64,000 nt of DNA from an uncultured Candidatus Saccharibacteria bacterium (GCA_964502615.1 CAZCXF010000002.1:24236-88235), one strand, 5' to 3'. Counted from the stretch's first letter, positions 8,170-63,278 are shown. A program made the numbers and translations. The notes: generated by a model not told the origin, from the sequence alone.

Positions 8170-8240
8170 CTGCCGACCAGGGACTCGAACCCCAATACCA
8201 TCCTCCAGAGGGATGTGTCCTACCATTAGACGAGTCGGCA
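8170..8240 (-). tRNA. tRNA-Gln (anticodon CTG)
   Basis: Reverse complement: TGCCGAC-TC-GTCT-AATGGTA-GGAC-A-CATCC-CTCTGGA-GGATG...TGGGG-TTCGAGT-CCCTG-GTCGGCA-G. The U1-A72 pair is typical of bacterial tRNA-Gln. Confidence 0.8.
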
Positions 8241-8338
8241 ATGTTGTAACCTCGATATATTAACATAAAAACAATAAAAATGAATCACAAATAAAAAAGT
8301 GCCAGGTGGTTAGTCTGGCAAGTTCATTTGGGTTGGTT

Positions 8339-8638
8339 TTATATCCCTTCTCCTGCTTTCATCTTTTTCAACTCAGGATCTTGAATATGTAGCTTATTTG
8401 CTTGTTTGTCTCCTAGGAGAGTTTTCAAAAAGCTATAGCCCTTGTGTCCTTTTCTGAGATCCTCGGGGATTACCTTTTCTGCAATCTTATGAAAGTTTTC
8501 ATCTCCTTTCATTGGGGCAACCATTTGTTCAATTTCTCTTTTTAATTCATCGAGAGTTTCTACTTTCTCATAAATTATTCTTAATGCTTCTTCCATAGTA
8601 CAATGTTTTAATTGCAAGTATATTACTCTTATGTTCAC
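8339..8638 (-). CDS. Hypothetical protein (start probably at internal Met, MEEALRII...)
   Basis: ORF only; charged alpha-helical composition. Confidence 0.35.
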   Translation of the reverse strand: MNIRVIYLQLKHCTMEEALRIIYEKVETLDELKREIEQMVAPMKGDENFHKIAEKVIPEDLRKGHKGYSFLKTLLGDKQANKLHIQDPELKKMKAGEGI

Positions 8639-8653
8639 CAGATGTCAAAATTA

Positions 8654-8680
8654 AAAAACACCCTAGTTAGGGTGTTTTTT
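8654..8680. terminator. Rho-independent terminator (hairpin ACACCCTA-gtta-GGGTGT with flanking A/T runs)
   Basis: Perfect inverted repeat with poly-T on the minus strand, immediately downstream of the 8691..8990 gene. Confidence 0.7.
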
Positions 8681-8690
8681 AATTTAAAGA

Positions 8691-8990
8691 TTATTGAGTT
8701 TTTGTTGGAGCAGGGGGTTGAGTCTTGATATCTTTAATGTATCCTCCCATCATGCCGTAGCCATAATTTGCATCTTTGTCCCATCTCATCATTTTACCTC
8801 CATAACCATATGAACTACGGATTTCTCCTTTAAGTTCTCCGATTTCCATACCTAGAGAAAAGGCCATTATTAATAGGACTATTATTAATATTTTAACCAT
8901 CATATGCTTTTTATAACCATGCATATCTCCACACATGCCACAACCATGTGCATTGCATGGACAAGTTCCACCTTTCATTTCTTCTGACAT
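8691..8990 (-). CDS. Small Cys/His/Met/Gly/Tyr-rich membrane-anchored protein, putative metal-binding
   Basis: CPCNAHGCGMCGDMHGYKKHMM N-terminal cluster, a single TM helix, then YGYGG/MMGGY repeats. Confidence 0.45.
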   Translation of the reverse strand: MSEEMKGGTCPCNAHGCGMCGDMHGYKKHMMVKILIIVLLIMAFSLGMEIGELKGEIRSSYGYGGKMMRWDKDANYGYGMMGGYIKDIKTQPPAPTKTQ

Positions 8991-9068
8991 AATTTTATAT
9001 AAATTTATTATAAATAAAATAACCGACTAATCATATTATACGCTATTTTATAATAAATAGTGTAAGTT

Positions 9069-9596
9069 TTAACTTAGGATTATTTTACCAAAAAACCACC
9101 CAATTGCTCCTAGATAAGTAGCTCTTATAAATATTCCTATCATTGTTGATATAAAGTAGTTTTTAAAAGATAAACGTAAAATTCCAGCACAAGCAGTAAC
9201 AACAGTATTTGGAAATATTGGTAAAAATCTTAGTATTGTTATTGCTCGCACTGTGTTTTTATTATTAGCTATTTTTTCACGAGCCTCCTCTATTTTCTTG
9301 CTCGAGACAAAAAAATATTTGCCGTAAGTTTTTAGACCAATAATTCCTCCATAGTAAGCAATATAATAAATCCAAAGCGAGCCAATAGTTACACCAAGAG
9401 CAGAGGGAAGTGCAACTACTAAAAGTAACTTTATTACACCACCTATAGTAAATGCTTGTCCGCCTAAAATAATTGCACCTGCTCCAATATGAACAAGTAC
9501 AGATGGTATAAAAACAACCACCTCTTCTATTATGAAAGCAAGAAACACCCCTAATGCTCCAAAAATTATTATTACATTATTTAAATTTTCAATCAT
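9069..9596 (-). CDS. DedA / SNARE-associated (TVP38/TMEM64) family membrane protein
   Basis: Polytopic membrane protein with a DedA-type core (FLPIFPNTVVTACAGILRLSFKNYF). Confidence 0.65.
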   Translation of the reverse strand: MIENLNNVIIIFGALGVFLAFIIEEVVVFIPSVLVHIGAGAIILGGQAFTIGGVIKLLLVVALPSALGVTIGSLWIYYIAYYGGIIGLKTYGKYFFVSSKKIEEAREKIANNKNTVRAITILRFLPIFPNTVVTACAGILRLSFKNYFISTMIGIFIRATYLGAIGWFFGKIILS

Positions 9597-9598
9597 TT

Positions 9599-10102
9599 TT
9601 AGTAAGGATATTGTCTAAGTTTTAATTTATATGCAACAAAGCATGCAAGTGGATGGAAAATATATGTAAATACCAGCCCTGCTAAAGCAAGCGCCCAAGA
9701 TATATATCCAAAGCATAATAGTACTAATCCAGTTGTTATCATGTAATCCCCATGATCAACTATTGGCATAAATTTACCATCTTCGATTCCGAACCTACGT
9801 TTTATAAAACTACCAATAGTGTGACCAAGATATACCAATAGGGGAATGATCGCTAGATAAAAATCATTAAAAATAATATAGACAGTAATTGAAGCAATTA
9901 TTGCTATCAATAGTCCAAAAACGGTTGTAGATTCTCCTATCAATCTATTCCCTGAAAGTATAATATTTGCATCTATCGGTCTATCCATCGATACATATGT
10001 AGGCCTATACCTCTTTAATACATAGAGTAAATTAAAAAGTATATTTGTTCCCCAGGCTATACCAACATAGAGAATAAAATTATAGATTGTTAAATTGATC
10101 AT
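9599..10102 (-). CDS. Small polytopic membrane protein, CdsA/CarS (DUF46)-like cytidylyltransferase-type, putative
   Basis: KRRFGIEDGKFMPIVDHGDY resembles the K-x-x-G-x-K-D-x-G C-terminal signature of CTP-transferase (CdsA/CarS) membrane proteins. The match is weak. Confidence 0.35.
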   Translation of the reverse strand: MINLTIYNFILYVGIAWGTNILFNLLYVLKRYRPTYVSMDRPIDANIILSGNRLIGESTTVFGLLIAIIASITVYIIFNDFYLAIIPLLVYLGHTIGSFIKRRFGIEDGKFMPIVDHGDYMITTGLVLLCFGYISWALALAGLVFTYIFHPLACFVAYKLKLRQYPY

Positions 10103-11405
10103 AAAATATTGGGTTTACCATCACATATGTATTTATCCCAGATTTTCTTATCATACCATCTATTACAGATAGTGGCTCAGGTAAACATGGATTCATATAT
10201 ATATGAAAGTTAGTTTTCCAATATTTTCCATATATAATCGATTCCTCACTTTTAAGAGTAATGAATTCTTTTTGCCCAATTACCTTATTTCTTATGGGCA
10301 TATTTGTAAGTACGTCCATAGATACTTCTTCTGGATAAGATTTTTCCATACAAGTTATACCAGGTACTGTAACAGGTAGATAACTCTCGTTCTTATCTAT
10401 ACTTTTTATTATATTATGAATCGAGGTATCCTTTTCTAGATTCTTTTTTATAACTTCGTTTTTGTCTTTATCATATATATAAAAATTCTGGCCAGGTTCT
10501 ATAATATTTTCTCCATAATTGTATATATCTAAATCGCGAACTCCAGCTTGCCACCATGATCCTAAAAATATAAATATAATAGGGATTAAAAATTGAAGTC
10601 TTACCTTTTCTTTAGTTAAGTAAAGAATTATTTCATACAAGAGAATTATTGATGCGAGCTCTGCTAGTAGTAGAGCTAAACTCGGATCAATATCAGCCAT
10701 AAATATATTAGTTACCAAAAATAACAATGAAAAAAAAGTTATTATGTAGTAATAATTTAGATTGAATTTATTTTTCTCTCTCATTGAAAAAGCCCAGACA
10801 AAGAAAGCCCCTATATAAAAGCCATAATTCAACAACCCTCCATCAATAGATGTTTTTATTATTGAAAATGATAATATCGCATATCCTATTATCAAAAAAA
10901 ATTTTTGAGTTGCATTCCTATCTTTTATCTTTGAATAGAATGATGAAGCAAAGTACCATATAACTTGCAAAAGCACTATTAAAAGTAGTATTGAACCTAT
11001 ATAAAATAAAATATTTGGAATAACTCCTATGTATGCACCTCCTGCATCAACTTTTGCAAGATCAGTGAATCCTATTTTTGAAAGTATTATTCCCACAGCA
11101 CCTTTTGCAACGTGAGTATGTGATAGGGTAGAGCTCGATATCTCTCCATTGTTTCCAGTTATTATAAAATCAGTTATTTTTACTCCAAGAATTTTAGTAT
11201 AGATTACATGTAAAAATAATCCATATAAGTATAAACTTCCTAAACTTATACCAAACCACTTCCACTTAAAACTTTTTAGTGGTTTTTTATTTTCTATGAT
11301 TTTATATATTAAAAAAAGAGTTATTAAATAAGTAACAAACAAAAAAACCTTAGTGTCGCTTCTACCACCAGCAAAGATATTAACGAAAGAGTGTATTAAG
11401 GGCAT
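10080..11405 (-). CDS. Large polytopic membrane protein (about 8 TM + C-terminal ~160-aa soluble domain), hypothetical
   Basis: Hydrophobicity pattern only; the gene sits immediately downstream of two pilin genes. Confidence 0.5.
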   Translation of the reverse strand: MPLIHSFVNIFAGGRSDTKVFLFVTYLITLFLIYKIIENKKPLKSFKWKWFGISLGSLYLYGLFLHVIYTKILGVKITDFIITGNNGEISSSTLSHTHVAKGAVGIILSKIGFTDLAKVDAGGAYIGVIPNILFYIGSILLLIVLLQVIWYFASSFYSKIKDRNATQKFFLIIGYAILSFSIIKTSIDGGLLNYGFYIGAFFVWAFSMREKNKFNLNYYYIITFFSLLFLVTNIFMADIDPSLALLLAELASIILLYEIILYLTKEKVRLQFLIPIIFIFLGSWWQAGVRDLDIYNYGENIIEPGQNFYIYDKDKNEVIKKNLEKDTSIHNIIKSIDKNESYLPVTVPGITCMEKSYPEEVSMDVLTNMPIRNKVIGQKEFITLKSEESIIYGKYWKTNFHIYMNPCLPEPLSVIDGMIRKSGINTYVMVNPIFYDQFNNL

Positions 11406-11407
11406 GC

Positions 11408-11965
11408 TTAGAATGATCCAGGACCGTACCCAAAAGACTTAGGGTTACCATTCTCTAGATTTTCAGCATAGACTCTATATGTGCTAGCTGTTACAGTACC
11501 TGGTCCTAATTGGTCATTTATATAAGACAATGCCCCAGGAGCTTGATAAACATAATCAAAATATCCTCTATACTTGTAATTTCCACTTGGATCATAACAA
11601 TTAGCTCCACAAGGATCTTTCGGTACTGTTTTCATATAAGGATTTAGAGCTGTTGTAAGAGTTGACCATGGTTTACCGTTACCACCATCAAATTCATTTG
11701 TAAAACATGTATTATCATATGCATCTGGATTATCGCAGTTTCCTGACTCGCCTAAATCAGGAGCATGGTTATTCCCCGCTATATAAAGCTCAATAGCTGT
11801 TCTTATTTCTTGAATATTTCTTATTCGCTTTGCATCTCTACCTTTAGCTCGAGCAGAACTTAGTGATGCTATTATGATCGTAGATAATACAGCTATTATT
11901 ACAATAGCTATTAGTAACTCAATAAGAGTAAATCCTCCCTTTATATTCTTTTTAGTCTTCTTCAT
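11408..11965 (-). CDS. Type IV pilin / pseudopilin-like protein with prepilin-type N-terminal methylation domain
   Basis: N-terminus KGGFTLIELLIAIVIIAVL (prepilin peptidase site G|FTLIE). It is a paralogue of 12026..12592 with near-identical blocks (SSARAKGRDAKR, PWSTLTTALNPYMKTVPKDPCG). Confidence 0.8.
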   Translation of the reverse strand: MKKTKKNIKGGFTLIELLIAIVIIAVLSTIIIASLSSARAKGRDAKRIRNIQEIRTAIELYIAGNNHAPDLGESGNCDNPDAYDNTCFTNEFDGGNGKPWSTLTTALNPYMKTVPKDPCGANCYDPSGNYKYRGYFDYVYQAPGALSYINDQLGPGTVTASTYRVYAENLENGNPKSFGYGPGSF

Positions 11966-12025
11966 AGAGAGAATTATAACAATTATGGTCTATGTTTGCC
12001 AACTAAAATTTTAGGTTAGATTTAG

Positions 12026-12592
12026 TTAAAATGACCCAGGACCGTATCCAAAGAACTTAGGGTTACCCTTTTCAAGATTTGTTGCAAATATCCTGTAAGT
12101 ATTAACGGTTACGGTTCCTGGTCCTATTTGGTCGTTTAAATAAGATAATGTTCCAGGCGCATGATATACGTATTCGAAATATCCTCTGTCGTTATAGTTT
12201 CCAGATGGATCGTAACATCCTACTCCACAAGGATCTTTCGGTACTGTTTTCATATAAGGATTTAGAGCTGTTGTAAGTGTTGACCATGGTTTACCTGTAC
12301 CTCCTCCATCCCATTCATTTGCAAAACAAGAAGGATCATATGCTTCTGGGTTTCCACAATTTGATGGATCACCTAAATCTGGTGCATGACCATTTCCTGC
12401 TATATATAACTCAATTGCAGTTCTAATCTCTTCAATATTTCTAACTCTCTTAGCGTCTCTGCCTTTAGCACGTGCAGAACTAAGAGCCGACAGTATTATT
12501 GCTGATAGTATTGCTATTATTGCAATTGCTATTAATAATTCAATAAGAGTAAATCCACCAACAAGATTCTTCTTTCTTAGCTTCTTTTTCAT
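12026..12592 (-). CDS. Type IV pilin / pseudopilin-like protein (tandem paralogue)
   Basis: N-terminus VGGFTLIELLIAIAIIAIL. Roughly 75-80% identical to 11408..11965. Confidence 0.8.
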   Translation of the reverse strand: MKKKLRKKNLVGGFTLIELLIAIAIIAILSAIILSALSSARAKGRDAKRVRNIEEIRTAIELYIAGNGHAPDLGDPSNCGNPEAYDPSCFANEWDGGGTGKPWSTLTTALNPYMKTVPKDPCGVGCYDPSGNYNDRGYFEYVYHAPGTLSYLNDQIGPGTVTVNTYRIFATNLEKGNPKFFGYGPGSF

Positions 12593-12645
12593 ACAGATAA
12601 TTATACCAACTATGGTTTATATTACCAATCTGTTAAAATGTCTTT

Positions 12646-12978
12646 ATGTTAATGAAAATTTTCTTTATAGGTAGGGCAATAAGAGAAGCCAAAAATAACC
12701 CATCAGGATTTGCTAGTTCAAATACCAAAGAGGCTTTATGGGGAATATTTTTAATTCCCATAATTATACTTGCACTAGGACTTATTTTTTTGTTTATTCT
12801 TTCCTTTACACATTTACTTGGTGGCCCGTATCTTTTCTTTAAAATTATATTTTTTATTGGCTTATTTTTTTCTTCAATATTTTTTGTGATAGTGTATAAG
12901 CTCATAAGTAAGATAGGGAATACGACCAAAAAAGTTGTTTCTAAAACAATAGAAAATGTAAGTAATAAAATACAATAA
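12646..12978 (+). CDS. Small hydrophobic membrane protein (uncertain; overlaps an equally long antisense ORF)
   Basis: Three predicted TM helices. The competing minus-strand ORF 12633..12995 would run through the terminator at 12984-13010. Confidence 0.25.
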   Translation: MLMKIFFIGRAIREAKNNPSGFASSNTKEALWGIFLIPIIILALGLIFLFILSFTHLLGGPYLFFKIIFFIGLFFSSIFFVIVYKLISKIGNTTKKVVSKTIENVSNKIQ

Positions 12979-12983
12979 AAAAT

Positions 12984-13010
12984 AGCGTACCCCATCCGGC
13001 GGTACGCTAT
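12984..13010 (-). terminator. GC-rich rho-independent terminator for the 13042..13911 gene
   Basis: TAGCGTACC-ccatccggc-GGTACGCTA, followed on the minus strand by ATTTTTTATT. Confidence 0.7.
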
Positions 13011-13041
13011 AACTGTATATATAACAGTCTATGAAAAGCTC

Positions 13042-13911
13042 TTAATCTCCACGGTTTGCAAAGGTGTATCCGACTGAAATACCCAGGAAGATGTTTTCGG
13101 TGCGTCCATTACGCTTGCCGATTAATCCTGAAGGAGTATTGTCGGAGTACTTGCTGCTTATCCTCGGCACTACACACTTTGCTTGTACGAAGAAGTTTTT
13201 AAATTTTGCAGAGACCAGACCGTAAATTTCCAACCGGGTATCTGTGATTCGGGTGTTGTAGTAGTGTCGGCCAGATATTTGCGGCTCACTGGTGTTGTAT
13301 ATCAGAGCTTTAAACCCAGCACCAACCCCGATTACATCTCCGAAAAACTTCTTGAACTCCAGCTGGGGAATAAAAACATTTTCAGACCATGCGCTGTCAT
13401 TATCACGGGGCAGGAAAGTGTATGTCAGGCTCAGTTCTGCATCGATACCAGACTCATCTCCTTCCAGGTTTCCCATGATTCTTGCTCCCCATAATACATC
13501 GTTGTCATTCTTTTTTCTCAGGCTGTCGGGCAACGGTTTGGGTGTGATCATTGCTGTCGGTCCGCCGCCTAAGTTCAGGTAGTAATGGCCGTCACGGAAG
13601 TTTCCTCTGTCATAGGTGAAAGTCTTGTGCAAGCCACCACCAACGGTAATGCTTGTCATTTTACGCAGGCCAGGATAAGATCCCTTTTTCAAAGGTTGTT
13701 CCCGGGAAAATCCGCAGATGAACCCGCCGTAGTAATCACGGAAGTCGATTTCTGCAGTTTTTCCTACATTGGTGGAATCCTTTTTTTCAAGGTTTACACC
13801 AACAGAAATTTTGCCGTAATACGGCGGGATTTCTTTCTCCGCTTTTTGTTTTTTCTGTGCGAATGCGCTGATAGATACCAGCGCAAGAATCGCGATCATG
13901 ATTTTTTTCAT
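13042..13911 (-). CDS. Exported outer-membrane beta-barrel-like protein with a Bacteroidetes-type signal peptide; gene has anomalously high GC (~45-50%)
   Basis: Signal peptide MKKIMIAILALVSISAFAQ. Alternating amphipathic beta-strand pattern with Gly/Tyr-rich turns and a C-terminal ...GYTFANRGD. Local GC is much higher than the flanks. Confidence 0.6.
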   Translation of the reverse strand: MKKIMIAILALVSISAFAQKKQKAEKEIPPYYGKISVGVNLEKKDSTNVGKTAEIDFRDYYGGFICGFSREQPLKKGSYPGLRKMTSITVGGGLHKTFTYDRGNFRDGHYYLNLGGGPTAMITPKPLPDSLRKKNDNDVLWGARIMGNLEGDESGIDAELSLTYTFLPRDNDSAWSENVFIPQLEFKKFFGDVIGVGAGFKALIYNTSEPQISGRHYYNTRITDTRLEIYGLVSAKFKNFFVQAKCVVPRISSKYSDNTPSGLIGKRNGRTENIFLGISVGYTFANRGD

Positions 13912-19148: not shown

Positions 19149-19700
19149 TTAATTAATTAATTTTACGTAAATATCATCAGTGTCAACTGCATTACATGCT
19201 CCTCCTAAGGTTGCGTTGTCAGTTGGATAATCTTGAACAGTATTCCTACCATAAGACACAACAACAGGGTAGCTTGCATCAATTGAGTTTTCGCAGATAT
19301 GATAGTCAGGGTCGAACACATAAGAAGTTCCCCATTGGTCTGTTGCAGATTCAGCATATGGTCCCTTCCATCTTGATATATCACCAGCGTTCCAACTGCA
19401 TGTTCCTGATGAGAAAATACTAGGTGCAGATATTATTCCAGAATTAGGGCTGGTTAGATTAACTTCAGGATTAGATGTCTGGTCTATAGGACAACCGTTT
19501 GGCCATTTTGAGGTATCATTTTCAAGCATTGTGATTGCGTTCCTTAAACTTTTTATTTCAAGAAGAGCTTTTACATTCTCAGCTTTTAGTTTAGCGTTAT
19601 TTAAAGAAATCATAATAACACTAGTAAGTATACCTATAATTGCAATAACAACTAGGAGTTCTAAAACAGTAAATCCACTATTTTTAGTTTTTGATATCAC
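19149..19700 (-). CDS. Type IV pilin-like protein (prepilin N-terminal domain)
   Basis: N-terminus NSGFTVLELLVVIAIIGILTSV. Confidence 0.75.
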   Translation of the reverse strand: MISKTKNSGFTVLELLVVIAIIGILTSVIMISLNNAKLKAENVKALLEIKSLRNAITMLENDTSKWPNGCPIDQTSNPEVNLTSPNSGIISAPSIFSSGTCSWNAGDISRWKGPYAESATDQWGTSYVFDPDYHICENSIDASYPVVVSYGRNTVQDYPTDNATLGGACNAVDTDDIYVKLIN

Positions 19701-19732: not shown

Positions 19733-21379
19733 CTACCTATTGCACTCTGGGTCAACTTTTACTTCGACAAATTTAAATAATTCGTTACAAAGGTTTTTTA
19801 TTGTCTTTCTATTTCTATATACATGCCCTTCTCCCTTGTAAGAAATAAGTTTTACATCTTTATTGTTTGATTTTAATTTATTGTATAGATCTGTTGCTTG
19901 CCAATAGGGAATTGTTCTATCTGCTACTCCTGCAATGATTTCTATTTTTTGGTTTCCAATATTATTTATTTTATTATATATAGAAGCTTGATCGTAAAGT
20001 GCGCGATTGTTTACATCTGGAAGCCCATTGAATTCAGTATTAAATATTGAATTTTGCATTTTAACAACGAGACTTTCCCAGTCAGTAACTCCATTTATAG
20101 AAACTACTCCATCAAATACATCTGGACGTTCGACTAAAGACTTCAAAGATAAATAGCCACCGTAGCTATTTCCCATTAAATAAACCTTACTAACTTTATA
20201 TTTATTTTTTATATAATCAATTGAGTTTAATACATCCAAAACATCACCCTTTCCAACGGACTCTTTAATAGATTCAGAATAAATCCTTCCAAAACCGATA
20301 CTGCCTCTATAATCCAATTTTAGTACTAGAAAATTATTCTTTGGGAAGAGTTTCAATATTGAATCATAAACTCCGTAACTATGGTATGGATGGTAGTTTA
20401 TACTTGTCTGTCTAACAGGTCCGCCGTGGAGCCATATAATTAGAGGATAAGATTTATCTTTTCTAATTTGTTTCGGTGGCATTAGTACACCACTCATGTT
20501 TCCTATAGTAACGACTTCCTCATTGCTGGTAGATTTTTTGGTGTTTATGTTAGGTATCCTAAAATTAGAAACCCTTTTACTTTTTGGATTATATATTTTA
20601 GGTCCATATCCAATATTCTGTAATCCATTAAAAACAATTACTGAACCAACTTTTCTCAATCTATCTACATAAGATACATCGTTTTCTATTACTTTATCTT
20701 CTCCTGTTTTTAGATTGAGTTGGTAGAGCGACCACTGATAAGGATTGTTTTTACTGTTGCCAATATAATATATGGTCTGTGAATCATAAAAAATGAAATC
20801 ATTTATAGTAAAAGCTGATGTAGAAATTTTTGAGCTGTTAATTTTGCTATTTACTAAGTTATTAGTTTCTACTTTATATAAAGACATATATCCGTCATTA
20901 TCATCCAAGTAAACTAATAGTTTATTGTCAGGAGAGAATTCATAAATTTTATTTAAATCCACTACCAAATCCCAATATGATCTAGTTTCATCAAGTCTAT
21001 AGTCTTTATTTTGTTTTATATCTTTTATTACAAAACTGCTAATATTATTACCTTTTTCTGGTGAAAGATAATAAGCTAGAAAATCTTCTGCTGGTGAGAG
21101 TGTTAAGTGCTCGGCTTTTTTCTCTAATAACTCTTTTTTTAGATCACTTTTTATAATTGAAATTTTCTCTCCACCCAAAGTGAATTTTTTAGTTTTTTCA
21201 CAAGCTAGTGTTGTGACACTACATATAAAATTAGTTTTATTCCCAATACCAGAGTATTGTATTAATACGTTATTTTTATTAGTAGAAATTGTAGTACCAT
21301 ATTCCACACTTAAAGCTTCGGCTCTTAATGAGCAGAATAGATATAAAAGTATTATCAGAGTGTACTTGGGTCTCAACAT
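19733..21379 (-). CDS. S9 family serine peptidase (prolyl oligopeptidase / dipeptidyl peptidase-like), secreted
   Basis: Signal peptide, N-terminal beta-propeller-like region, and a C-terminal alpha/beta hydrolase with GNSYGGY (GxSxGG) and downstream D/H. Confidence 0.75.
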   Translation of the reverse strand: MLRPKYTLIILLYLFCSLRAEALSVEYGTTISTNKNNVLIQYSGIGNKTNFICSVTTLACEKTKKFTLGGEKISIIKSDLKKELLEKKAEHLTLSPAEDFLAYYLSPEKGNNISSFVIKDIKQNKDYRLDETRSYWDLVVDLNKIYEFSPDNKLLVYLDDNDGYMSLYKVETNNLVNSKINSSKISTSAFTINDFIFYDSQTIYYIGNSKNNPYQWSLYQLNLKTGEDKVIENDVSYVDRLRKVGSVIVFNGLQNIGYGPKIYNPKSKRVSNFRIPNINTKKSTSNEEVVTIGNMSGVLMPPKQIRKDKSYPLIIWLHGGPVRQTSINYHPYHSYGVYDSILKLFPKNNFLVLKLDYRGSIGFGRIYSESIKESVGKGDVLDVLNSIDYIKNKYKVSKVYLMGNSYGGYLSLKSLVERPDVFDGVVSINGVTDWESLVVKMQNSIFNTEFNGLPDVNNRALYDQASIYNKINNIGNQKIEIIAGVADRTIPYWQATDLYNKLKSNNKDVKLISYKGEGHVYRNRKTIKNLCNELFKFVEVKVDPECNR

Positions 21380-27706: not shown

Positions 27707-28105
27707 ATGAATCTTCAAGTTGGTGTAAAAATTTTACTTAAGAATAAAGAAGGAAAATATCTTCTTGTTAGGCGTTCGGTAGAAAAATATCCTGAAGTTG
27801 GAGCAAAATGGGATATAGTTGGCGGGCGCATTGATCCCGGCAGTTCGCTTATGGATAATTTAAAAAGGGAAGTAAAGGAAGAAACCGGTCTTGGAATAAA
27901 TGGAAAACCAAAATTGATTGAAGCTCAAGATATCCTTCGTATAGAAGATAAACACGTAGTACGCCTTACATATATAGGTGAAGCAGATGGAGAGGTAATA
28001 TTAAGCGACGAGCACGATCAATATGGCTGGTTCTCAGTAGATGAAATGGATAAACTAGAACCGATGGATATATACTTTAAAGAAGTTATTAGTTTAATAA
28101 AATAA
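27707..28105 (+). CDS. NUDIX hydrolase
   Basis: Nudix box GGRIDPGSSLMDNLKREVKEETGL. Confidence 0.75.
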   Translation: MNLQVGVKILLKNKEGKYLLVRRSVEKYPEVGAKWDIVGGRIDPGSSLMDNLKREVKEETGLGINGKPKLIEAQDILRIEDKHVVRLTYIGEADGEVILSDEHDQYGWFSVDEMDKLEPMDIYFKEVISLIK

Positions 28106-28106
28106 T

Positions 28107-28835
28107 ATGGATCAAAAAAAATTTGAACAATCATTATCTAATTTACAACAATCTGAAGGAGAAATAAAATATCTCAAGCATTTAGAAGAGCCTATCATAA
28201 AAGACTATGATCAATTGGCTACATCCTTAAAAGATGCCTTAAATCAGTTTCCTAGTTCTATGATGATAAATCTATATACAGATGAACAATTAGTAGAAAA
28301 AACTAAAGAAACACCAAGGTTGCATCTTGATGAATATTTAAAAACCCAGAATAAAGTTATTGATAGTGAATTTTACAAAGATCAGAATGTTATTGATACC
28401 GTGAATCAGTATAATGCTTTTATTGATGAGATAAAAAAATGCTCTTCCAAGAAAAATTTTAGCGACTTATATGAAAAAGTTCAAAAATTTTCACAAGATA
28501 TTAGACAGAGATTATTTACGTATATAAGAAACAAAGAACAGTTTAGAAAAGTTTTCTATGAGATGAAAGATCAATTCGAAGGCATAAAACAAGACGTTAT
28601 TAATGAATTACCCTTCGATCAAATAAAAGGAAATAATAAAAATAGAAAATATAAAACCTTCAAGGAATTGTTAGAATCAAATAAAAAAATTCTCTCTGAA
28701 GATTTGATGAAACAAGACTCTTATAAATTATTAGTCACAGATTTCGATGATATAGTAATAAGATTAAAGTCTCTGAAAACCGAAGAAGAACTACATCAGA
28801 TAATAGAAGAGATTAATGAATTTCTAAATATTTAA
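28107..28835 (+). CDS. Hypothetical charged/coiled-coil protein
   Basis: No recognisable motifs. Embedded between Nudix genes with 1-4 nt spacing, so likely co-transcribed. Confidence 0.45.
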   Translation: MDQKKFEQSLSNLQQSEGEIKYLKHLEEPIIKDYDQLATSLKDALNQFPSSMMINLYTDEQLVEKTKETPRLHLDEYLKTQNKVIDSEFYKDQNVIDTVNQYNAFIDEIKKCSSKKNFSDLYEKVQKFSQDIRQRLFTYIRNKEQFRKVFYEMKDQFEGIKQDVINELPFDQIKGNNKNRKYKTFKELLESNKKILSEDLMKQDSYKLLVTDFDDIVIRLKSLKTEEELHQIIEEINEFLNI

Positions 28836-28839
28836 TTAT

Positions 28840-47589: not shown

Positions 47590-50500
47590 TTGTATATTGG
47601 GCTTTTTGCATCCAGTTATTTCATGATAAACAAGAAATTTAAAAAAATTATTTCAAGCATTTACTCAAAGATTATATTATCTATTTTCCTTGTTATTTTT
47701 GTGTCTCCACATACTGTTTTAGCTGCAAACCCACTTTCTAATTTTGGTCACTCTCTTTGGGATGTATACAACAATTATATTGTCCAACCTCTAAGTAAAG
47801 GCGTTTCACTTTTCTTTATCGAATATCCAGTAAAAAGCGATCCTGTTTTTATTGTTCGTACCTCACCTCAACCAAAAAAGAATAATTCTGAGACAGAAAA
47901 AGTAAATTACATAAGCGGTGCAAATTCTGTTACATATATTACAAACAATTATCCAACGACTACTATTTACCAGAATACTTCAAGTGGTGGAGGAGGTGGT
48001 GGAAATGTTGATACATCGCTTTTTGTTGAAAAAAGTTTATACAATGGACAAATTTTAACCATTTTTGATCGAATAGGAAAAAGTATAAGTAATTTAGCGA
48101 CCACACTGAAGGAAAGTATTACCACAAGTACACTAAATATAACTGGTAATGCAACAATCGGAGGAAATCTGACCATTACTGGCAACATTATTGGAAACGT
48201 AGTTGGAACTATCAATCCATCTTTTACCCTAGGTTCTGTTCCATTTCAAGGAGCAACTGGACTTTCGCAAGATAACTCAAATTTCTTTTGGGACGTTACA
48301 AATCATAGGCTTGGAATTGGAACGAATACTCCAACAACTGCGCTTGATGTGGTAGGCAGTGGTAATATAAATGCTATAAACGGGCTCATTCAGTTAGGAG
48401 ATTTTACTGAAATGAGTGGTGCAACATGGTTTAAGATAGATGATGGTAGCACAACGATAAGAGCAAAAGCGGCAAGCGGAATTATATTTAATAATAATTT
48501 GTCAATTGGAAAAAATGCTGCTCCATCAGTAGCTTTAGATGTAGTAGGAGATATTTCGTCATTAACATCAAGTGGTACAGCGGGTATTAATACTCAAACA
48601 GATATTACTGATATAGGAGATTGGCAAAGCAATGGTAATGGAACCAAAGTTTCGGTTAATAATTCATCAAATAGGATTTCATTATCTTCAGCAGATGTAA
48701 GGGTAAGTAGCTTATCTGGCACAGGAACCCGTGCTGTTGTTGCGGATGCAAGCGGAATTCTTTCTACGTCAGGTTCTATACCCACAAGCCTCACACAAGG
48801 TTCAGTTGTCTTCGCTGGAAGTGGAGGTGTACTCTCACAAGATAACGCGAATGTTTATTTTGATGATACAGCAAATGAATTTCGTATAGGTTCAAATACG
48901 GATTTAGGTACATACTCTCTACAAGTTACGGGTGGTATTCGTGTGGACGGAACTGCAGCTAATGAAGTTCAATTTACTGGGAATAATTCTTTTAATCCTG
49001 GTTTTGTATTTAATGGATCAAGTAGTAATACTCATATGTACACTTTTGATTCTCAGAACCTTTCTACTAGTACTGGTGGGCAAACTGTATTTACAAATTC
49101 ATTTTTACAATTGAGTGGCACTTCATATATACAGCCATACCAACAAAATCTTAGAGTGATCAGAACTTATCCTGGAACTGGCACAGCTAATACTTTAGAG
49201 GTAGATAATACAACAGAAAATGCTGTACCAGGTACATACCGAATAGCATTATTTAAACTTTCAGGGGTGGATAAAGCTTTTATAGATCAAACAGGAGGTG
49301 CTTGGTTTAATGGCAACGTAGGTGTGGGTACGAGTGGTCCAAACTATAAATTAGAAGTTATTGGTACATTTCGTACTTCAGGCAACGCATTGTTTGGTAC
49401 AAACACATCTTCTGGAACAACAACGCCCGAAAATATCTCTCTTGGTGGTACGTACGGAAGTAACACTGCGGGAAATGTAGGAAATTTAAAAATTGATTTA
49501 TATAACGATGGGACTTCCAACAGATCTGGATTTGGTATTTCAGCAAACAAATTGGAATATCAAACACCAACAAGTACAGTACATGCTTTTTATGTCGGAG
49601 GTAATTTAATTCAAAGTATTGACGATAATTCAGTGCTCATAAAATCAGGATTATTTTCAACATCTACTTATGCTCAGAGAATCGGTAACTTGTTAACTCA
49701 AAATTATCAATCTAACAATACAACTATTGTTGATAATGCTTACTATAATGGTACCTCTTGGACTAGACTTGCAACTGGTTATGCATCCGGAATACAAATG
49801 TACAACGGTCATTTGATGATGGTTGCAGGTGCAACTGGTACTGGAACCTTTACCCCAACATATCCATTTAAAGCAAATTCTGCAGGTACAGTTGGTATCG
49901 GGGGAGATGGTGGAAACGTTGCGAATACGTTTACGGGCAACACATTGGTTGCCACTTCATCTGGAGTTGGAATTACTACAACTGTTTCAACTGGAACTGG
50001 TTCAACTGCTGGAGTACAAATACTTGCAAATAGTTTAACTACAGGTAATGGACTTGAAGTCAGTAGTTCGTCTGTAACTACAGGTAATCTTGTTTCGTTA
50101 TCTTCAACTTCAACATCTGCTGCAAGTAACACGCAAACAGTTTTAAATGTTTCGACAAGTGGTGCTAATCCTATAAACCAAACAACCTACGGTGGATATT
50201 TTAGTAATACTCACACAGGAACCAATTCTGTAAATACCGCTATTTATGCAACTGCTTCAGGTGGTTCTAGTAACTATGCGGCAAATTTTGGAGCAGCTCT
50301 TCTAATGAGTGCTACCACACCTTGTATTTCTTTCCAGCTAGGAACTTGTGCAAGTAGTGATAACTTTATCAATAGAAATGGAACAGTTGTAACAGTGCAA
50401 GGTTCAGGAGGGACAACACTTTCAGTCGGTGGAACTGCATATTTAGATGCTGTGACAAGTAAAGTCAGAATGTTTTCAGCAGGATCTGGTGAGGTTCAGA

Positions 50501-51924
50501 TAGATACAAACGTAGATGCAGGTGCGTATGCCCTTCAAGTAGTGGGTAATGAATATTTTGCCATGTCATCAAATACTGCTCTTGGTTTCAATGCAAACGA
50601 TGGCACCAATAACTATTTAGTTATAAATACCCAAACTGGTACTAGTGCAATATCACGATTCACTTTATCTGGAACAGCACCTACTATTGCATCGGCTGCT
50701 GGAACTCAATTTATTAATAATACCGAAACTCCTGGTACCTATAATGTCACAGGTACAACAAACATTACTGGTACTGGTACTTCTTCAAATATAGGCTCAC
50801 TTTATAATCAGTTGACTATAAATGGCAATAATACCTTAACTGTTTCTGAATCTTCGAATTTACTGATTAATGGTGCAGTAAAAGCATCCTCATCTTCTGG
50901 AACTTTAACTATTACCAACTCGTATGGATTAAATATTTTAGCTGGCTCTGCTCTTAATGGAACAAATGGTGTTGTTACAAACGGATATGGTCTTTCTGTA
51001 AACGCCCCAACAGGTGCAACAAACAATTACTCAGCCGTATTTAGCGGAGGTAATGTTGGAATTAAAAATACAGCTCCAGGTTTTGCGCTACATGTCGGCT
51101 CTTCTGCTATTACCGATGCCACAACTCTTATTCGTCTTGAAGACGCGAACTCAACTTGTGATTTCAATGCAAACGCAGGTGGTCCAACTTGTGGATCTGA
51201 TATAACGCTTAAGAAAGATATAACTTCTCTAGATACCGTTGACCTTCTCACAAAGATCGCAGCTCTAAATCCAGTCTCATATAGATGGCTTACTCAAGGG
51301 GAGATGGATCCACTACAATATGGATTTATCGCTCAAGAAGTTGAAGCGCAATTCCCGGATTTGGTTAGTGAACATAAATGGATTGATGGCTCAAATAAAA
51401 AATTCTTAAACATGAGCGGTCTCGTACCTTACGCAATAGGCGCGATAAAAGAACTAAATATAAAAATCCAAGGTTTTTCATCACTCGATACATCTAATAC
51501 TAACTCGGTTGGTTATCTTATGAAAAATTTCTTGGCTGATATAAGTAACAGTGTAGTTGATCTTTATGCAAAAGTTATTCACTCAGATAAATCAGTTACA
51601 AAGCAATTGTGTGTTGCAGATGATAGCGGGGCTGAAACTTGTATCACTAAAGCCCAATTGGATAACCTATTACAGAATCAAATAACTAATGGCGGTAATG
51701 GTGGGGGAGGTAATCCACCTATAAATCCACCAACAGATATTTGTCCAAACATCGACGGAGATCAAAGTGCTTTGCCTGAGGGAATGCATCTAGACGAGAG
51801 TTATAACTGCGTAGCTGATAACAATACTACTCCACCGACGAATGATAATACAGGAAATACAAACAATGGAACCCCTCCAAGCGATAGCGCAACTCCTCCA
51901 CCAGGCGATCAACCACAACCTTAA
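47590..51924 (+). CDS. Giant (1444 aa) secreted Gly/Thr/Ser/Asn-rich fibre-like protein with a C-terminal peptidase-S74 intramolecular chaperone (tailspike/endosialidase-type autoprocessing) domain and a Pro/Thr-rich tail
   Basis: Signal peptide (ILSIFLVIFVSPHTVLA|ANP). About 1100 aa of low-complexity beta-rich repeats (LGIGTNTP, NVGIKNTAPG-type motifs). Near the C-terminus, GSDITLKKDITSLDTVDLLTKIAALNPVSYRWL...YGFIAQEVEAQFPDLV...LVPYAIGAIKELNIKIQ matches the S-D-x-x-L-K...SYxxK...GFIAQEV...LV...AIKEL consensus of the chaperone-of-endosialidase domain. Confidence 0.7.
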   Translation: MYIGLFASSYFMINKKFKKIISSIYSKIILSIFLVIFVSPHTVLAANPLSNFGHSLWDVYNNYIVQPLSKGVSLFFIEYPVKSDPVFIVRTSPQPKKNNSETEKVNYISGANSVTYITNNYPTTTIYQNTSSGGGGGGNVDTSLFVEKSLYNGQILTIFDRIGKSISNLATTLKESITTSTLNITGNATIGGNLTITGNIIGNVVGTINPSFTLGSVPFQGATGLSQDNSNFFWDVTNHRLGIGTNTPTTALDVVGSGNINAINGLIQLGDFTEMSGATWFKIDDGSTTIRAKAASGIIFNNNLSIGKNAAPSVALDVVGDISSLTSSGTAGINTQTDITDIGDWQSNGNGTKVSVNNSSNRISLSSADVRVSSLSGTGTRAVVADASGILSTSGSIPTSLTQGSVVFAGSGGVLSQDNANVYFDDTANEFRIGSNTDLGTYSLQVTGGIRVDGTAANEVQFTGNNSFNPGFVFNGSSSNTHMYTFDSQNLSTSTGGQTVFTNSFLQLSGTSYIQPYQQNLRVIRTYPGTGTANTLEVDNTTENAVPGTYRIALFKLSGVDKAFIDQTGGAWFNGNVGVGTSGPNYKLEVIGTFRTSGNALFGTNTSSGTTTPENISLGGTYGSNTAGNVGNLKIDLYNDGTSNRSGFGISANKLEYQTPTSTVHAFYVGGNLIQSIDDNSVLIKSGLFSTSTYAQRIGNLLTQNYQSNNTTIVDNAYYNGTSWTRLATGYASGIQMYNGHLMMVAGATGTGTFTPTYPFKANSAGTVGIGGDGGNVANTFTGNTLVATSSGVGITTTVSTGTGSTAGVQILANSLTTGNGLEVSSSSVTTGNLVSLSSTSTSAASNTQTVLNVSTSGANPINQTTYGGYFSNTHTGTNSVNTAIYATASGGSSNYAANFGAALLMSATTPCISFQLGTCASSDNFINRNGTVVTVQGSGGTTLSVGGTAYLDAVTSKVRMFSAGSGEVQIDTNVDAGAYALQVVGNEYFAMSSNTALGFNANDGTNNYLVINTQTGTSAISRFTLSGTAPTIASAAGTQFINNTETPGTYNVTGTTNITGTGTSSNIGSLYNQLTINGNNTLTVSESSNLLINGAVKASSSSGTLTITNSYGLNILAGSALNGTNGVVTNGYGLSVNAPTGATNNYSAVFSGGNVGIKNTAPGFALHVGSSAITDATTLIRLEDANSTCDFNANAGGPTCGSDITLKKDITSLDTVDLLTKIAALNPVSYRWLTQGEMDPLQYGFIAQEVEAQFPDLVSEHKWIDGSNKKFLNMSGLVPYAIGAIKELNIKIQGFSSLDTSNTNSVGYLMKNFLADISNSVVDLYAKVIHSDKSVTKQLCVADDSGAETCITKAQLDNLLQNQITNGGNGGGGNPPINPPTDICPNIDGDQSALPEGMHLDESYNCVADNNTTPPTNDNTGNTNNGTPPSDSATPPPGDQPQP

Positions 51925-62594: not shown

Positions 62595-63278
62595 ATGATT
62601 CATCTAAAACCTGAAGAACTAGAAAATTTATTCATAGAATTAATTGAAAACGCCACCCAACTTCTCAAAACATCAGTTAGTGTATCAGGTACAGATGAAA
62701 AACATATCGCCTTAGCTCTTGCAGAACTTGCGCTCGAAGAAATCGGAAAATCTTTCACTTGTCTTGCGTATTATGCCGTAGCAGATTCTGTTACAGATTG
62801 GACAGCTTTTTGGAAGGATTGGAAAGACCACAAAGTCAAAGCCCATAGAGCTTTCTTGTATGAATTTATTTCTACAGTACGAGTAGAATTAAAAGACAAG
62901 CCAGATTATTTTCCTTCAAAAAGAGTGACGATTCCGCTTGAAAAAGAAGTCAGTTTTTATGTGGATTTTGATAAAACAAAAAGAGAGATAATTATTCCTA
63001 AAGCAGTAATTGATAACACAGAGATATTCTCAAGGATTACTTCGTTATTTGGCGTACTTAATGCAGCTATGCTGATTAGAGATTTATTGAAAACTAAAAA
63101 AGAAGACTACAAAAAAGCTGTCTCTGAATATGCTTTTATGGTTATGACTACAGGCATTACACAAAAAGAAGCAGAAGAATTCCTAATGAATTCTGAAGAT
63201 GGAACTAAAGAGCATAATAATGCTTTTAATGATATATTAAAACTATTGAAAGCTCGAGTTGAAGATAAAGAAATTTAA
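62595..63278 (+). CDS. Hypothetical alpha-helical protein (possible HEPN/Abi-like; weak)
   Basis: ORF preceded by a 490-bp non-coding gap and followed by a terminator and two tRNAs. No firm motif match. Confidence 0.45.
   Translation: MIHLKPEELENLFIELIENATQLLKTSVSVSGTDEKHIALALAELALEEIGKSFTCLAYYAVADSVTDWTAFWKDWKDHKVKAHRAFLYEFISTVRVELKDKPDYFPSKRVTIPLEKEVSFYVDFDKTKREIIIPKAVIDNTEIFSRITSLFGVLNAAMLIRDLLKTKKEDYKKAVSEYAFMVMTTGITQKEAEEFLMNSEDGTKEHNNAFNDILKLLKARVEDKEI

What the first reader, a model, noticed from the sequence alone, without database searches (positions are those of the whole stretch)
9069..12592. Pilin locus with downstream membrane-enzyme-like genes (candidate pilin glycosylation / lipid-carrier module)
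Two tandem pilin paralogues (12026..12592 and 11408..11965; ~75-80% identical, with conserved Cys pairs and PWSTLTTALNPYMKTVPKDPCG block) are followed on the same strand with 0-3 nt spacing by three genes. These are an 8-TM protein with a large extracytoplasmic C-terminal domain, a small membrane protein with a CdsA/CarS-like KRRFGIEDGK..VDHGD motif, and a DedA-family protein. DedA proteins are implicated in polyprenyl-phosphate recycling. Large polytopic proteins adjacent to pilin genes are, in other bacteria, O-oligosaccharyltransferases (PilO/TfpO/PglL type) that use lipid-linked sugars. The operon composition therefore suggests coordinated pilin modification or export, not just structural pilins.
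Basis: inference. Interest (0 to 1): 0.5.

Follow-up and report, generated by a model that had tools for sequence, protein, structure and literature searches.

The report
Pilin-linked membrane enzyme pair, uncharacterised
In an ultrasmall (Patescibacteria) bacterium, two pilus-subunit genes are followed by an undescribed outward-facing membrane protein that is almost always paired with a bacterial copy of an archaeal-type lipid-activating enzyme.

Summary
The five same-strand genes are real: two 78%-identical type IV pilins, a 441-aa 8-TM protein ("X441"), a 167-aa CarS-like protein and a DedA protein.

- X441 and CarS-like form a near-obligate pair: adjacent in 25 of 26 distinct loci with enough flank, with coding regions overlapping by 4-26 nt in 19 of them. 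The pairing holds down to 21% identity.
- A pilin sits directly upstream in 19 of 28 loci.
- Cluster pilins end in a conserved G-S-F/Y tail (21 of 25). Pilins elsewhere in the same loci do not (0 of 10).
- All family-invariant polar residues of X441 face outward.
- The flippase partner varies (DedA or GtrA). Two relatives are fused to an alkaline-phosphatase-superfamily domain.

Best reading (confidence about 0.4): a three-component extracytoplasmic modification system built from non-homologous parts, using a CTP-activated lipid donor. The chemistry is unknown and modification is unproven.

The parts
12600..12628 (-). Promoter-like site of pilin 1 (TTGGTA-17-TATAAT with an upstream TG). The -10 box ends 7 nt before the ATG, implying a leaderless mRNA.
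   Evidence: The same arrangement occurs in orthologous loci L001, L002 and L027.
12026..12592 (-). Type IV pilin paralogue 1 (188 aa). Prepilin motif GFTLIE, four Cys, C-terminal tail FGYGPGSF.
11973..12002 (-). Promoter-like site of pilin 2 (TTGGCA-18-TATAAT with an upstream TG; 11 of 12 consensus positions). It ends 7 nt before the ATG. It is the likely start of the transcript that also covers the three downstream genes.
   Evidence: best-scoring site in 8200-13200, and no terminator-like site between 11965 and 9069 apart from two weak intragenic ones. Also.
11408..11965 (-). Type IV pilin paralogue 2 (185 aa). Same family, tail FGYGPGSF. Its stop codon lies 2 nt before the X441 start.
10080..11405 (-). 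X441, a 441-aa protein of an undescribed family. It has 8 TM helices (18-37, 48-73, 131-160, 165-188, 194-210, 218-236, 241-263, 270-287), N- and C-termini outside, an outer loop 74-130 with a beta-hairpin, and a C-terminal alpha/beta domain (about 300-435) with the invariant pair C352/C407. Family-wide invariant residues are G14, K101, D120, G122, D188-G-G; near-invariant are F11, H96, H98, F180. All lie on the outer face.
9599..10102 (-). CarS-like protein (167 aa) of the CTP-transferase superfamily with the CDP-archaeol-synthase fold. It keeps K101-R-R and D116-H-G-D119. Its start overlaps the X441 stop by 23 nt.
9069..9596 (-). DedA/VTT-family membrane protein (175 aa), a putative lipid flippase. 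It starts 2 nt after the CarS-like stop.
   Evidence: Present directly downstream in 8 of 26 distinct loci.

Best explanation
The locus is a pilin-accessory cassette of a new composition.

Shown:
- Two type IV pilin genes are followed, without terminators and with 2-nt gaps or a 23-nt overlap, by X441, a CarS-fold CTP-transferase homologue and a DedA protein.
- X441 and the CarS-like gene form a near-obligate pair across Patescibacteria. They usually sit next to genes for small exported proteins, most often pilins of one family with a conserved G-S-F/Y carboxy-terminus.
- The conserved polar residues of X441 face the outside of the cell.

Inferred mechanism, a three-component extracytoplasmic modification system:
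1. On the cytoplasmic face, the CarS-like enzyme uses CTP to activate a membrane lipid phosphate. The lipid could be polyprenyl phosphate or phosphatidate, and the product would be a CDP-lipid. Less likely, the enzyme acts as a CTP-dependent lipid kinase.
2. A flippase (DedA here, a GtrA-family protein in another clade, or one encoded elsewhere) moves the charged lipid outward or returns the spent carrier.
3. X441 uses a probably metal-assisted site built from H96/H98/K101/D120/D188 at the outer membrane surface. It transfers a phospho-linked group from that lipid donor onto the co-encoded pilins, most plausibly at the Ser of the C-terminal G-S-F/Y tail.

X441 is not a member of the Wzy_C/PglL/TfpO or GT-C families. 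The transferred group is unknown.
For: Pairing:
- CarS-like is adjacent to X441 in 25 of 26 distinct loci with at least 500 nt of flank. Its start overlaps the X441 stop by 4-26 nt on the same strand in 19 of them.
- The pairing also holds when starting from the CarS-like side, in 4 of 4 bacterial cases (P0106, P0096, P0105, P0111). An archaeal CarS (P0116) instead sits with a CDP-alcohol phosphatidyltransferase and has no X441.

Link to pilins:
- A pilin lies directly upstream in 19 of 28 loci with enough flank.
- Pilin genes are interleaved with the membrane genes in L010 and L012.
- The pair is embedded in a PilD/minor-pilin operon in L023.
- The triad is kept at 21% X441 identity.
- Cluster pilins end in S-[FYW] in 21 of 25 cases, against 0 of 10 for other pilins in the same loci. 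Hypergeometric p is about 5e-6 by my own arithmetic, and the sequences are not independent.

Enzyme-like features of X441:
- Invariant K101, D120, D188 and near-invariant H96, H98 persist down to 16% identity.
- They are on the outer face by AF2 helices plus the K/R distribution.
- An invariant Cys pair sits in the C-terminal domain.

CarS-like competence:
- K-R-R and D..D are kept.

Three-component logic:
- DedA is present in 8 of 26 loci.
- GtrA is translationally coupled to CarS-like beside a distant X441.

Phospho-chemistry hint:
- Two X441 relatives are fused to an extracytoplasmic PF01663 alkaline-phosphatase-superfamily domain. One of them sits beside CarS-like in a locus with a Wzm/Wzt-like ABC transporter and GT2/GT4 genes.

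Precedent for pilin-accessory cassettes: PMC11841053.
Against: - There is no direct evidence that these pilins are modified.
- No gene in the window supplies a head group or glycan.
- Nine of 28 loci have no pilin next to X441. They carry other small exported proteins instead.
- A flippase gene is absent from most loci.
- The substrate and product of the CarS-like enzyme are unknown. To my knowledge, flipping of a CDP-lipid has no precedent.
- The conserved pilin tail could be structural rather than a modification site.
- X441 could be a non-catalytic assembly factor or a transporter. Conserved outward-facing residues do not prove catalysis.
- One fusion locus (L016) has no CarS-like gene within 14.6 kb.
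Confidence: 0.4

Rival explanations
1. Lipid salvage or activation module. Patescibacteria cannot make lipids de novo. X441 would take up or process host-derived lipid at the outer face, DedA would flip it inward, and the CarS-like enzyme would convert the resulting phosphatidate or isoprenoid phosphate to a CDP-lipid for head-group synthesis. Proximity to pilins would reflect co-regulation of host-contact functions.
For: - CarS-fold enzyme with an intact catalytic motif.
- DedA proteins flip phospholipids as well as C55-P (PMC10193950; bioRxiv 10.1101/2022.02.03.479048).
- No head-group or glycan genes nearby.
- X441 occurs without pilins in 9 of 28 loci.
- Lipid auxotrophy of the group rests on my own knowledge and was not tested here.
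Against: - The family is narrow: 443 clusters at 50% identity among 1.84 billion representatives. That is few for a need shared by all Patescibacteria.
- The specific, deep association with one pilin family and its C-terminal tail, including interleaved gene orders, is not expected for bulk lipid metabolism.
- The fusions to an alkaline-phosphatase-superfamily domain and the glycopolymer-locus context are also unexpected.
Confidence: 0.2
2. Non-catalytic pilin accessory factor. X441 would act like TfpY/TfpZ of Pseudomonas, binding its cognate pilin (perhaps the G-S-F/Y tail) in the membrane and priming or stabilising assembly without covalent modification. CarS-like and DedA would adjust local lipid.
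For: - Position directly downstream of the pilin gene, as in pilin-accessory cassettes. TfpX/Y/Z-type accessories do not modify pilins (PMC11841053).
- The C-terminal domain has only weak ferredoxin-like similarity and no enzyme-like match.
Against: - The tighter partner of X441 is the CarS-like enzyme, not the pilin (25 of 26 against 19 of 28 loci).
- The invariant K/D/D/H/H constellation persists to 16% identity.
- X441 occurs in loci without pilins and in a glycopolymer locus fused to a phosphodiesterase-type domain.
Confidence: 0.15
3. Modification of a non-protein envelope component. The pair would decorate a wall glycopolymer, lipid or peptidoglycan on the outer face (comparable to LtaS/GacH/YfhO-type decoration). 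The pilin neighbourhood would be incidental or regulatory.
For: - Fusion relatives lie between a Wzm/Wzt-like ABC transporter and GT2/GT4 genes.
- Another relative lies near FtsW/RodA, Bac_transf and GtrA.
- L025 has a Wzy_C gene about 2.5 kb upstream of X441.
Against: - In the window and most loci there are no glycopolymer genes.
- The recurrent immediate neighbours are exported proteins, and the pilin tail co-varies with the presence of X441.
Confidence: 0.15
4. X441 would be a PglL/TfpO-like O-oligosaccharyltransferase or GT-C glycosyltransferase that moves a lipid-linked sugar onto pilin.
For: - Gene position after the pilin, polytopic topology with outward-facing conserved residues, and a flippase-family neighbour.
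- TfpO modifies a C-terminal Ser in P. aeruginosa 1244 (my own knowledge), which parallels the G-S-F/Y tail.
Against: - 8 TM helices and an N-out topology.
- No sugar-activating or glycosyltransferase genes in 64 kb.
- The constant partner is a CTP-transferase, not a polyprenyl-phosphate glycosyltransferase.
Confidence: 0.07

Closest known systems
Pilin-accessory cassettes of Pseudomonas aeruginosa: TfpO/PilO (and Neisseria PglL) O-oligosaccharyltransferases
   Same: A polytopic membrane protein is encoded directly after the pilin gene (PMC11841053). Its active side faces the periplasm. TfpO targets a C-terminal Ser (my own knowledge), which parallels the conserved G-S-F/Y tail here.
   Different: X441 has no Wzy_C/PglL domain and no fold or profile similarity. 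It has 8 TM helices. Its constant partner is a CTP-transferase. No glycan genes are nearby.
TfpW (GT-C arabinosyltransferase, group IV pilins) and three-component extracytoplasmic glycosylation systems (GtrA/GtrB/GtrV; CsbB/GtcA/YfhO)
   Same: The logic is the same: a cytoplasmic enzyme charges a lipid carrier, a small flippase moves it, and an outward-facing polytopic transferase uses it. A GtrA-family gene is coupled to CarS-like beside a distant X441. DedA takes that position here.
   Different: The charging enzyme is CarS-fold and CTP-dependent, not a GT2 polyprenyl-phosphate glycosyltransferase. The transferase is not GT-C. The group transferred is therefore unlikely to be a simple sugar from an NDP-sugar.
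Archaeal CDP-archaeol synthase CarS (PDB 5GUF; PF01864)
   Different: It scores below the NCBIfam equivalog cutoff (67 against 148 bits). The bacterial clade has D-H-G-D where archaeal sequences have D-Q-L/E-D/T. No archaeal lipid genes are nearby, and it is always paired with X441. A real archaeal CarS sits with a CDP-alcohol phosphatidyltransferase instead.
Phospho-form transferases of the alkaline-phosphatase superfamily (Neisseria PptA on pilin; EptA, LtaS, GacH)
   Same: These enzymes carry out extracytoplasmic transfer of a phospho-head group from a membrane lipid onto Ser of pilin or onto envelope polymers (my own knowledge; PptA-type pilin modification is cited in PMC11623550, ref. 58). 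Two X441 relatives carry a C-terminal PF01663 domain.
   Different: The window's X441 has no such domain. Its own C-terminal domain has only weak ferredoxin-like similarity.
Archaeosortase ArtA with PssA/PssD (C-terminal lipid attachment in haloarchaea)
   Same: A polytopic membrane enzyme acts at a conserved protein C-terminus and is functionally linked to CDP-archaeol-dependent lipid enzymes (my own knowledge).
   Different: X441 has no Exosortase_EpsH hit and no conserved Cys in its membrane domain. The pilin tail has no transmembrane tripartite sorting signal.
TfpY/TfpZ/TfpX pilin accessory proteins
   Same: They are encoded after the pilin gene and are needed for optimal assembly without modifying the pilin (PMC11841053).
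   Different: No sequence relationship was seen. X441 carries an enzyme-like invariant residue set and an obligate enzymatic partner.

Membership tests
Type IV pilin (class III signal peptide proteins) | N-terminal prepilin cleavage/methylation motif G|F-T-L-I-E with Glu at +5, followed by a hydrophobic helix | tested here: met
   PF07963 E 1.2e-7 and 7.7e-8. TIGR02532 at 28.6 and 30.5 bits against a cutoff of 16.3. GGFTLIELLIAI is read directly in the sequence.
Type IV pilin (class III signal peptide proteins) | Globular C-terminal domain with disulfide-bonded Cys | tested here: met
   Four Cys align between the paralogues. They are largely conserved in 19 related pilins, including the PKDPCG..C motif.
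Type IV pilin (class III signal peptide proteins) | Prepilin peptidase and assembly machinery in the genome | not testable with these tools
   None is present in the 64-kb window. Related loci show PilD (L023) and PilM (L047) near the cluster.
CDP-archaeol synthase CarS (PF01864 / NCBIfam PRK04032) | Family-level sequence match | tested here: met
   PF01864 at 51.9 bits against a cutoff of 22. 5guf_A E 6e-13.
CDP-archaeol synthase CarS (PF01864 / NCBIfam PRK04032) | Equivalog-level match (same function as archaeal CarS) | tested here: not met
   NF003114 at 67.1 bits against a cutoff of 148.
CDP-archaeol synthase CarS (PF01864 / NCBIfam PRK04032) | Five-helix CarS fold | tested here: met
CDP-archaeol synthase CarS (PF01864 / NCBIfam PRK04032) | Conserved CTP/metal-binding residues (K-R-R and the Asp pair) | tested here: met
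   K101, R102 and D116 are invariant. R103 and D119 are near-invariant across 27 sequences that include archaeal ones.
CDP-archaeol synthase CarS (PF01864 / NCBIfam PRK04032) | Context of archaeal ether-lipid synthesis (GGGPS/DGGGPS, CDP-alcohol phosphatidyltransferases) | tested here: not met
   None in the window or in the 32 loci. Present beside the archaeal homologue P0116.
CDP-archaeol synthase CarS (PF01864 / NCBIfam PRK04032) | CTP:DGGGP cytidylyltransferase activity | not testable with these tools
   Needs an enzyme assay.
DedA / VTT-domain family; UptA-type C55-P flippase | VTT domain | tested here: met
   PF09335 at 58.2 bits against a cutoff of 33.9.
DedA / VTT-domain family; UptA-type C55-P flippase | UptA equivalog score | tested here: not met
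   NF052604 at 42.7 bits against a cutoff of 250. NF052605 at 25.7 bits against 300.
O-antigen ligase / O-oligosaccharyltransferase (Wzy_C: WaaL, PglL, TfpO/PilO) | Wzy_C/PglL sequence domain | tested here: not met
   No Pfam or NCBIfam hit at E<=0.1. No such family appears among 28 members at E<=1. hhalign against a Wzy_C protein gives probability 0.5%.
O-antigen ligase / O-oligosaccharyltransferase (Wzy_C: WaaL, PglL, TfpO/PilO) | WaaL/PglL-type fold | tested here: not met
GT-C glycosyltransferases (PglB, ArnT, TfpW, YfhO) | GT-C membrane fold with a cytoplasmic N-terminus and a catalytic acidic residue in the first outer loop | tested here: not met
Alkaline-phosphatase-superfamily phospho-form transferases (PptA/EptA/LtaS) | Extracytoplasmic sulfatase/phosphodiesterase-type catalytic domain | tested here: not met
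   Absent from the window's X441. Present only as a C-terminal fusion in P0219 and P0241 (PF01663, E 1.6e-21 and 1.3e-11).
Exosortase/archaeosortase | Exosortase_EpsH domain with the Cys-Arg-His triad | tested here: not met
   No PF09721 hit. No conserved Cys in the membrane domain.
TfpY/TfpZ-like pilin accessory proteins | Sequence or structural similarity to TfpY/TfpZ | not tested
No Pfam family of that name was hit.

The most novel reading that the evidence does not exclude
A bacterial CarS homologue makes a CDP-activated membrane lipid (CDP-polyprenol or CDP-diacylglycerol). The lipid is flipped to the outer leaflet and used by X441, an enzyme with no relative among solved folds, to phospho-lipidate or otherwise phospho-modify the C-terminal Ser of type IV pilins and other small surface proteins of Patescibacteria. 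That would be a new class of extracytoplasmic protein modification. It would also be the first function for CarS-type enzymes outside archaeal lipid synthesis.
Probability: 0.15. Interest if true: 0.85.

Novelty: new variant of a known kind. Interest (0 to 1): 0.6.

Why it matters
Type IV pili are central to how ultrasmall episymbiotic Patescibacteria find and attach to hosts. Whether and how their pilins are modified is an open question that the field itself has raised (PMC11623550).

This locus gives a concrete, testable candidate:
- a conserved gene pair,
- a defined pilin family with a signature C-terminal tail,
- five candidate catalytic residues.

It also assigns a context to two sets of "hypothetical" or probably mis-annotated genes. 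X441 has no Pfam family. The genes labelled "CDP-archaeol synthase" in bacteria lack archaeal lipid pathways around them.

If the CTP-activated lipid donor idea holds, the repertoire of lipid-linked donors used outside the cytoplasm would grow beyond polyprenyl-(P)P-sugars and phospholipid head groups.

Tried and rejected
- **AFDB fold libraries:** they were not on the machine. Fold novelty is therefore shown only against the PDB.
- **Metagenome scan with alignment A3:** the broad alignment had no stretch conserved enough, so A1 was used instead.
- **Pilin structure prediction from A2:** The exposure of the tail was not modelled.
- **Ren et al. 2017 CarS structure paper:** not held. Residue roles were taken from the review PMC9385802 and from alignments.
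- **Literature searches:** PF01864, CarS with Patescibacteria, and pilin glycosylation in Patescibacteria turned up no description of this module.
- **Third homology search, with A3:** it added almost nothing because of the candidate cap.
- **Archaeal origin suggested by the "Nanoarchaeia" label of P0215:** rejected, because the contig carries PolA, Mur ligase, RuvA, S20 and PilM.
- **TgpA_N and DUF4131 hits:** seen in 1 and 3 of 28 members respectively, and judged sporadic.
- **PLD-type HKD or PAP2 motifs in X441:** considered by eye and not found.
- **A shared C-terminal motif in the non-pilin neighbours:** considered. These proteins often end in an aromatic residue, but the pattern is too loose to claim.

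Full report
**Observation**

The minus strand of 9069-12592 carries five ORFs exactly as described. The organism is a low-GC member of the Patescibacteria. The nearest relatives of these genes come from Paceibacteria, Nomurabacteria and "Patescibacteria group" MAGs.

- **Pilins.** Both pass PF07963 and TIGR02532.
- **Promoters.** The two best promoter-like sites in 8200-13200 lie directly before each pilin ATG. Each has an upstream TG and ends 7 nt from the ATG, so both mRNAs look leaderless. The same layout recurs in orthologous loci.
- **Spacing.** No terminator-like site separates pilin 2 from the downstream genes. The junctions are 2 nt, a 23-nt overlap, and 2 nt. Pilin 2, X441, CarS-like and DedA are therefore probably one transcript (inferred).

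**The three downstream proteins**

- **The 175-aa protein.** It is a DedA/VTT protein, far below the UptA equivalog cutoff.
- **The 441-aa protein (X441).** It has no Pfam or NCBIfam hit. Its AF2 model (pLDDT 87.3, pTM 0.84) shows eight TM helices, a long loop with a beta-hairpin between TM2 and TM3, and a C-terminal alpha/beta domain. K/R-rich short loops alternate with K/R-free ones, which places both termini and the long loop outside.

**Test of the glycosyltransferase idea**

- Foldseek gave nothing at E<=1e-3. Its only domain-level resemblance was weak and ferredoxin-like, for the C-terminal domain.
- A family profile found no PDB sequence at E<=10.
- Scanning 28 diverse members against Pfam at E<=1 gave no recurrent family.
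- hhalign against a Wzy_C protein gave probability 0.5%.
- The rest of the window is housekeeping, with no glycosyltransferase, sugar-nucleotide or pilus-motor genes.

**What the comparative data show**

X441 belongs to a family of 443 clusters at 50% identity. Nearly all members are full-length proteins of 410-510 aa. I collected 32 distinct members with flanking DNA and tabulated them.

- **Pairing with CarS-like.** A CarS-like gene is adjacent in 25 of 26 loci with enough flank. In 19 of them it overlaps the X441 stop by 4-26 nt on the same strand. In two loci it is convergent, and one of those also overlaps by 4 nt. The only exception is a fusion locus.
- **Pairing seen from the CarS-like side.** Starting from four bacterial CarS-like proteins, each sits beside an X441 family member. 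An archaeal CarS instead sits next to a CDP-alcohol phosphatidyltransferase and an archaeosortase.
- **Pilins.** A pilin lies directly upstream in 19 of 28 loci. Pilin genes are interleaved with the membrane genes in L010 and L012. In L023 the pair lies inside an operon with PilD, five pilin-like genes and PilX-like proteins. At 21% X441 identity the order pilin-X441-CarS-like is still kept.
- **The pilin tail.** The linked pilins form one family. They end in F-G-[FY]-G-x-G-S-[FY], or at least S-[FYW], in 21 of 25 cluster copies. None of 10 other pilins in the same loci does so, including the window's third pilin at 19149-19700.
- **Loci without pilins.** X441 there is flanked by other small N-anchored or secreted proteins.
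- **Flippase partners.** DedA follows in 8 of 26 loci. In one distant locus a GtrA-family gene is coupled to CarS-like instead.
- **Fusions.** Two relatives are fused to an extracytoplasmic PF01663 domain. One of them lies next to CarS-like, a Wzm/Wzt-like ABC transporter and GT2/GT4 genes. Both share an unannotated neighbour of about 820 aa.

**Conserved residues**

Down to 16% identity the invariant columns are G14, K101, D120, G122, D188-G-G, C352 and C407. F11, H96, H98 and F180 are nearly invariant. The charged and His residues sit in the N-terminal segment, the TM2-TM3 loop and the TM4-TM5 turn, all on the outer face. The Cys pair lies in the outer domain. This looks like an active site at the outer membrane surface, possibly metal-dependent (inferred).

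**Interpretation**

The pieces fit the logic of three-component extracytoplasmic modification systems, and of pilin-accessory cassettes (PMC11841053). A cytoplasm-facing enzyme charges a membrane lipid, a small flippase moves it, and an outward-facing polytopic protein acts on exported substrates. Here the parts are non-homologous to the known ones, and the charging step uses CTP.

I therefore favour a CTP-activated lipid donor and a phospho-linked modification of the pilins, with the penultimate Ser of the tail as the likeliest site. Every step after "the genes are linked and the residues face outward" is inference.

The rivals cannot be excluded:
- **Lipid salvage** fits the lifestyle of the group, but not the narrow distribution or the pilin-tail covariation.
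- **A non-catalytic assembly factor** fits the gene position, but not the obligate enzymatic partner or the invariant polar set.
- **Decoration of a wall polymer** fits a few distant loci, but not this one.

**Novelty**

The held literature contains no description of this pairing. A recent study of Saccharibacteria pili lists pilin glycosylation as predicted but unconfirmed (PMC11623550). The finding is a new variant of the pilin-accessory and three-component theme. It is built around an undescribed protein family and a bacterial CarS homologue whose public annotation as "CDP-archaeol synthase" is probably wrong in function.

Noticed in passing
window 11973-12002 and 12600-12628 (-); also L001, L002, L010, L013, L027: Both pilin genes, and most orthologues, have a TATAAT box ending 6-8 nt before the ATG and no Shine-Dalgarno sequence. 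In the window's two genes and the closest relatives (L001, L002, L027) the box has the extended TGnTATAAT form. This implies leaderless pilin mRNAs.
   Followed up: partly
window 19149-19700 (-): A third type IV pilin with a different C-terminus (..DIYVKLIN). It is conserved in L001 and L002, lies next to an S9 peptidase gene (19733-21379), and lacks the G-S-F/Y tail of the X441-linked pilins.
   Followed up: partly
L006, L008, L015, L025, L032, L037, L039: In the clade where X441/CarS-like has no adjacent pilin, three kinds of neighbour recur: an N-anchored protein of about 140 aa (..SLGLYHLG.YEV.SRD.., ending ..DIxxxY), a Cys-rich protein of 230-290 aa, and a Fib_succ_major-like lipoprotein of 340-430 aa. 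In L050, two 201-aa N-anchored paralogues ending ..GKRAY precede X441.
   Followed up: partly
L016 7038-9680 and 11337-13808; L020 5637-8285 and 8291-10750: The two X441::Phosphodiest fusion proteins each have a homologous membrane-protein neighbour of about 820 aa (26% identity, E 6e-42) with no Pfam hit. It may be a further partner.
   Followed up: partly
window 34245-37823 (+): The isoleucyl-tRNA synthetase (1192 aa) carries an inserted histidine-phosphatase (His_Phos_1) domain at residues 539-703.
   Followed up: no
window 47590-51924 (+): A 1444-aa protein whose only Pfam hit is the Peptidase_S74 intramolecular chaperone domain, as in tail-spike or endosialidase-like fibres.
   Followed up: no
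window 27707-29728 (+): Three NUDIX hydrolase genes lie in a run (27707-28105, 28840-29304, 29306-29728), interrupted by one unannotated 242-aa ORF.
   Followed up: no
window 12633-12995 (-) / 12646-12978 (+): Two long ORFs overlap antisense just upstream of pilin 1. Only the + strand ORF (110 aa, 2-3 TM) is intact in L002, so it is probably the real gene, divergent from pilin 1.
   Followed up: partly
window 8691-8990 (-): A 99-aa small membrane protein rich in Cys, His, Met and Gly (..GGTCPCNAHGCGMCGDMHG..) lies 78 nt downstream of dedA behind its own TATAAT-like box. It is conserved in L001 and L002 and has no family hit.
   Followed up: no
window 13042-13911 (-): A 289-aa protein with a signal peptide sits in a local GC bump (0.44 against 0.31-0.36). 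It is only 45% identical to its L002 counterpart, while neighbouring genes are 85-90% identical. It has no family hit.
   Followed up: no
window 62595-63278 (+): A HEPN AbiV-family protein (abortive-infection type).
   Followed up: no
L047/L048 (protein P0215): The public record labels this X441 relative as "Candidatus Nanoarchaeia archaeon". Its contig carries PolA, a Mur ligase, RuvA, ribosomal protein S20 and PilM, so it is bacterial.
   Followed up: yes
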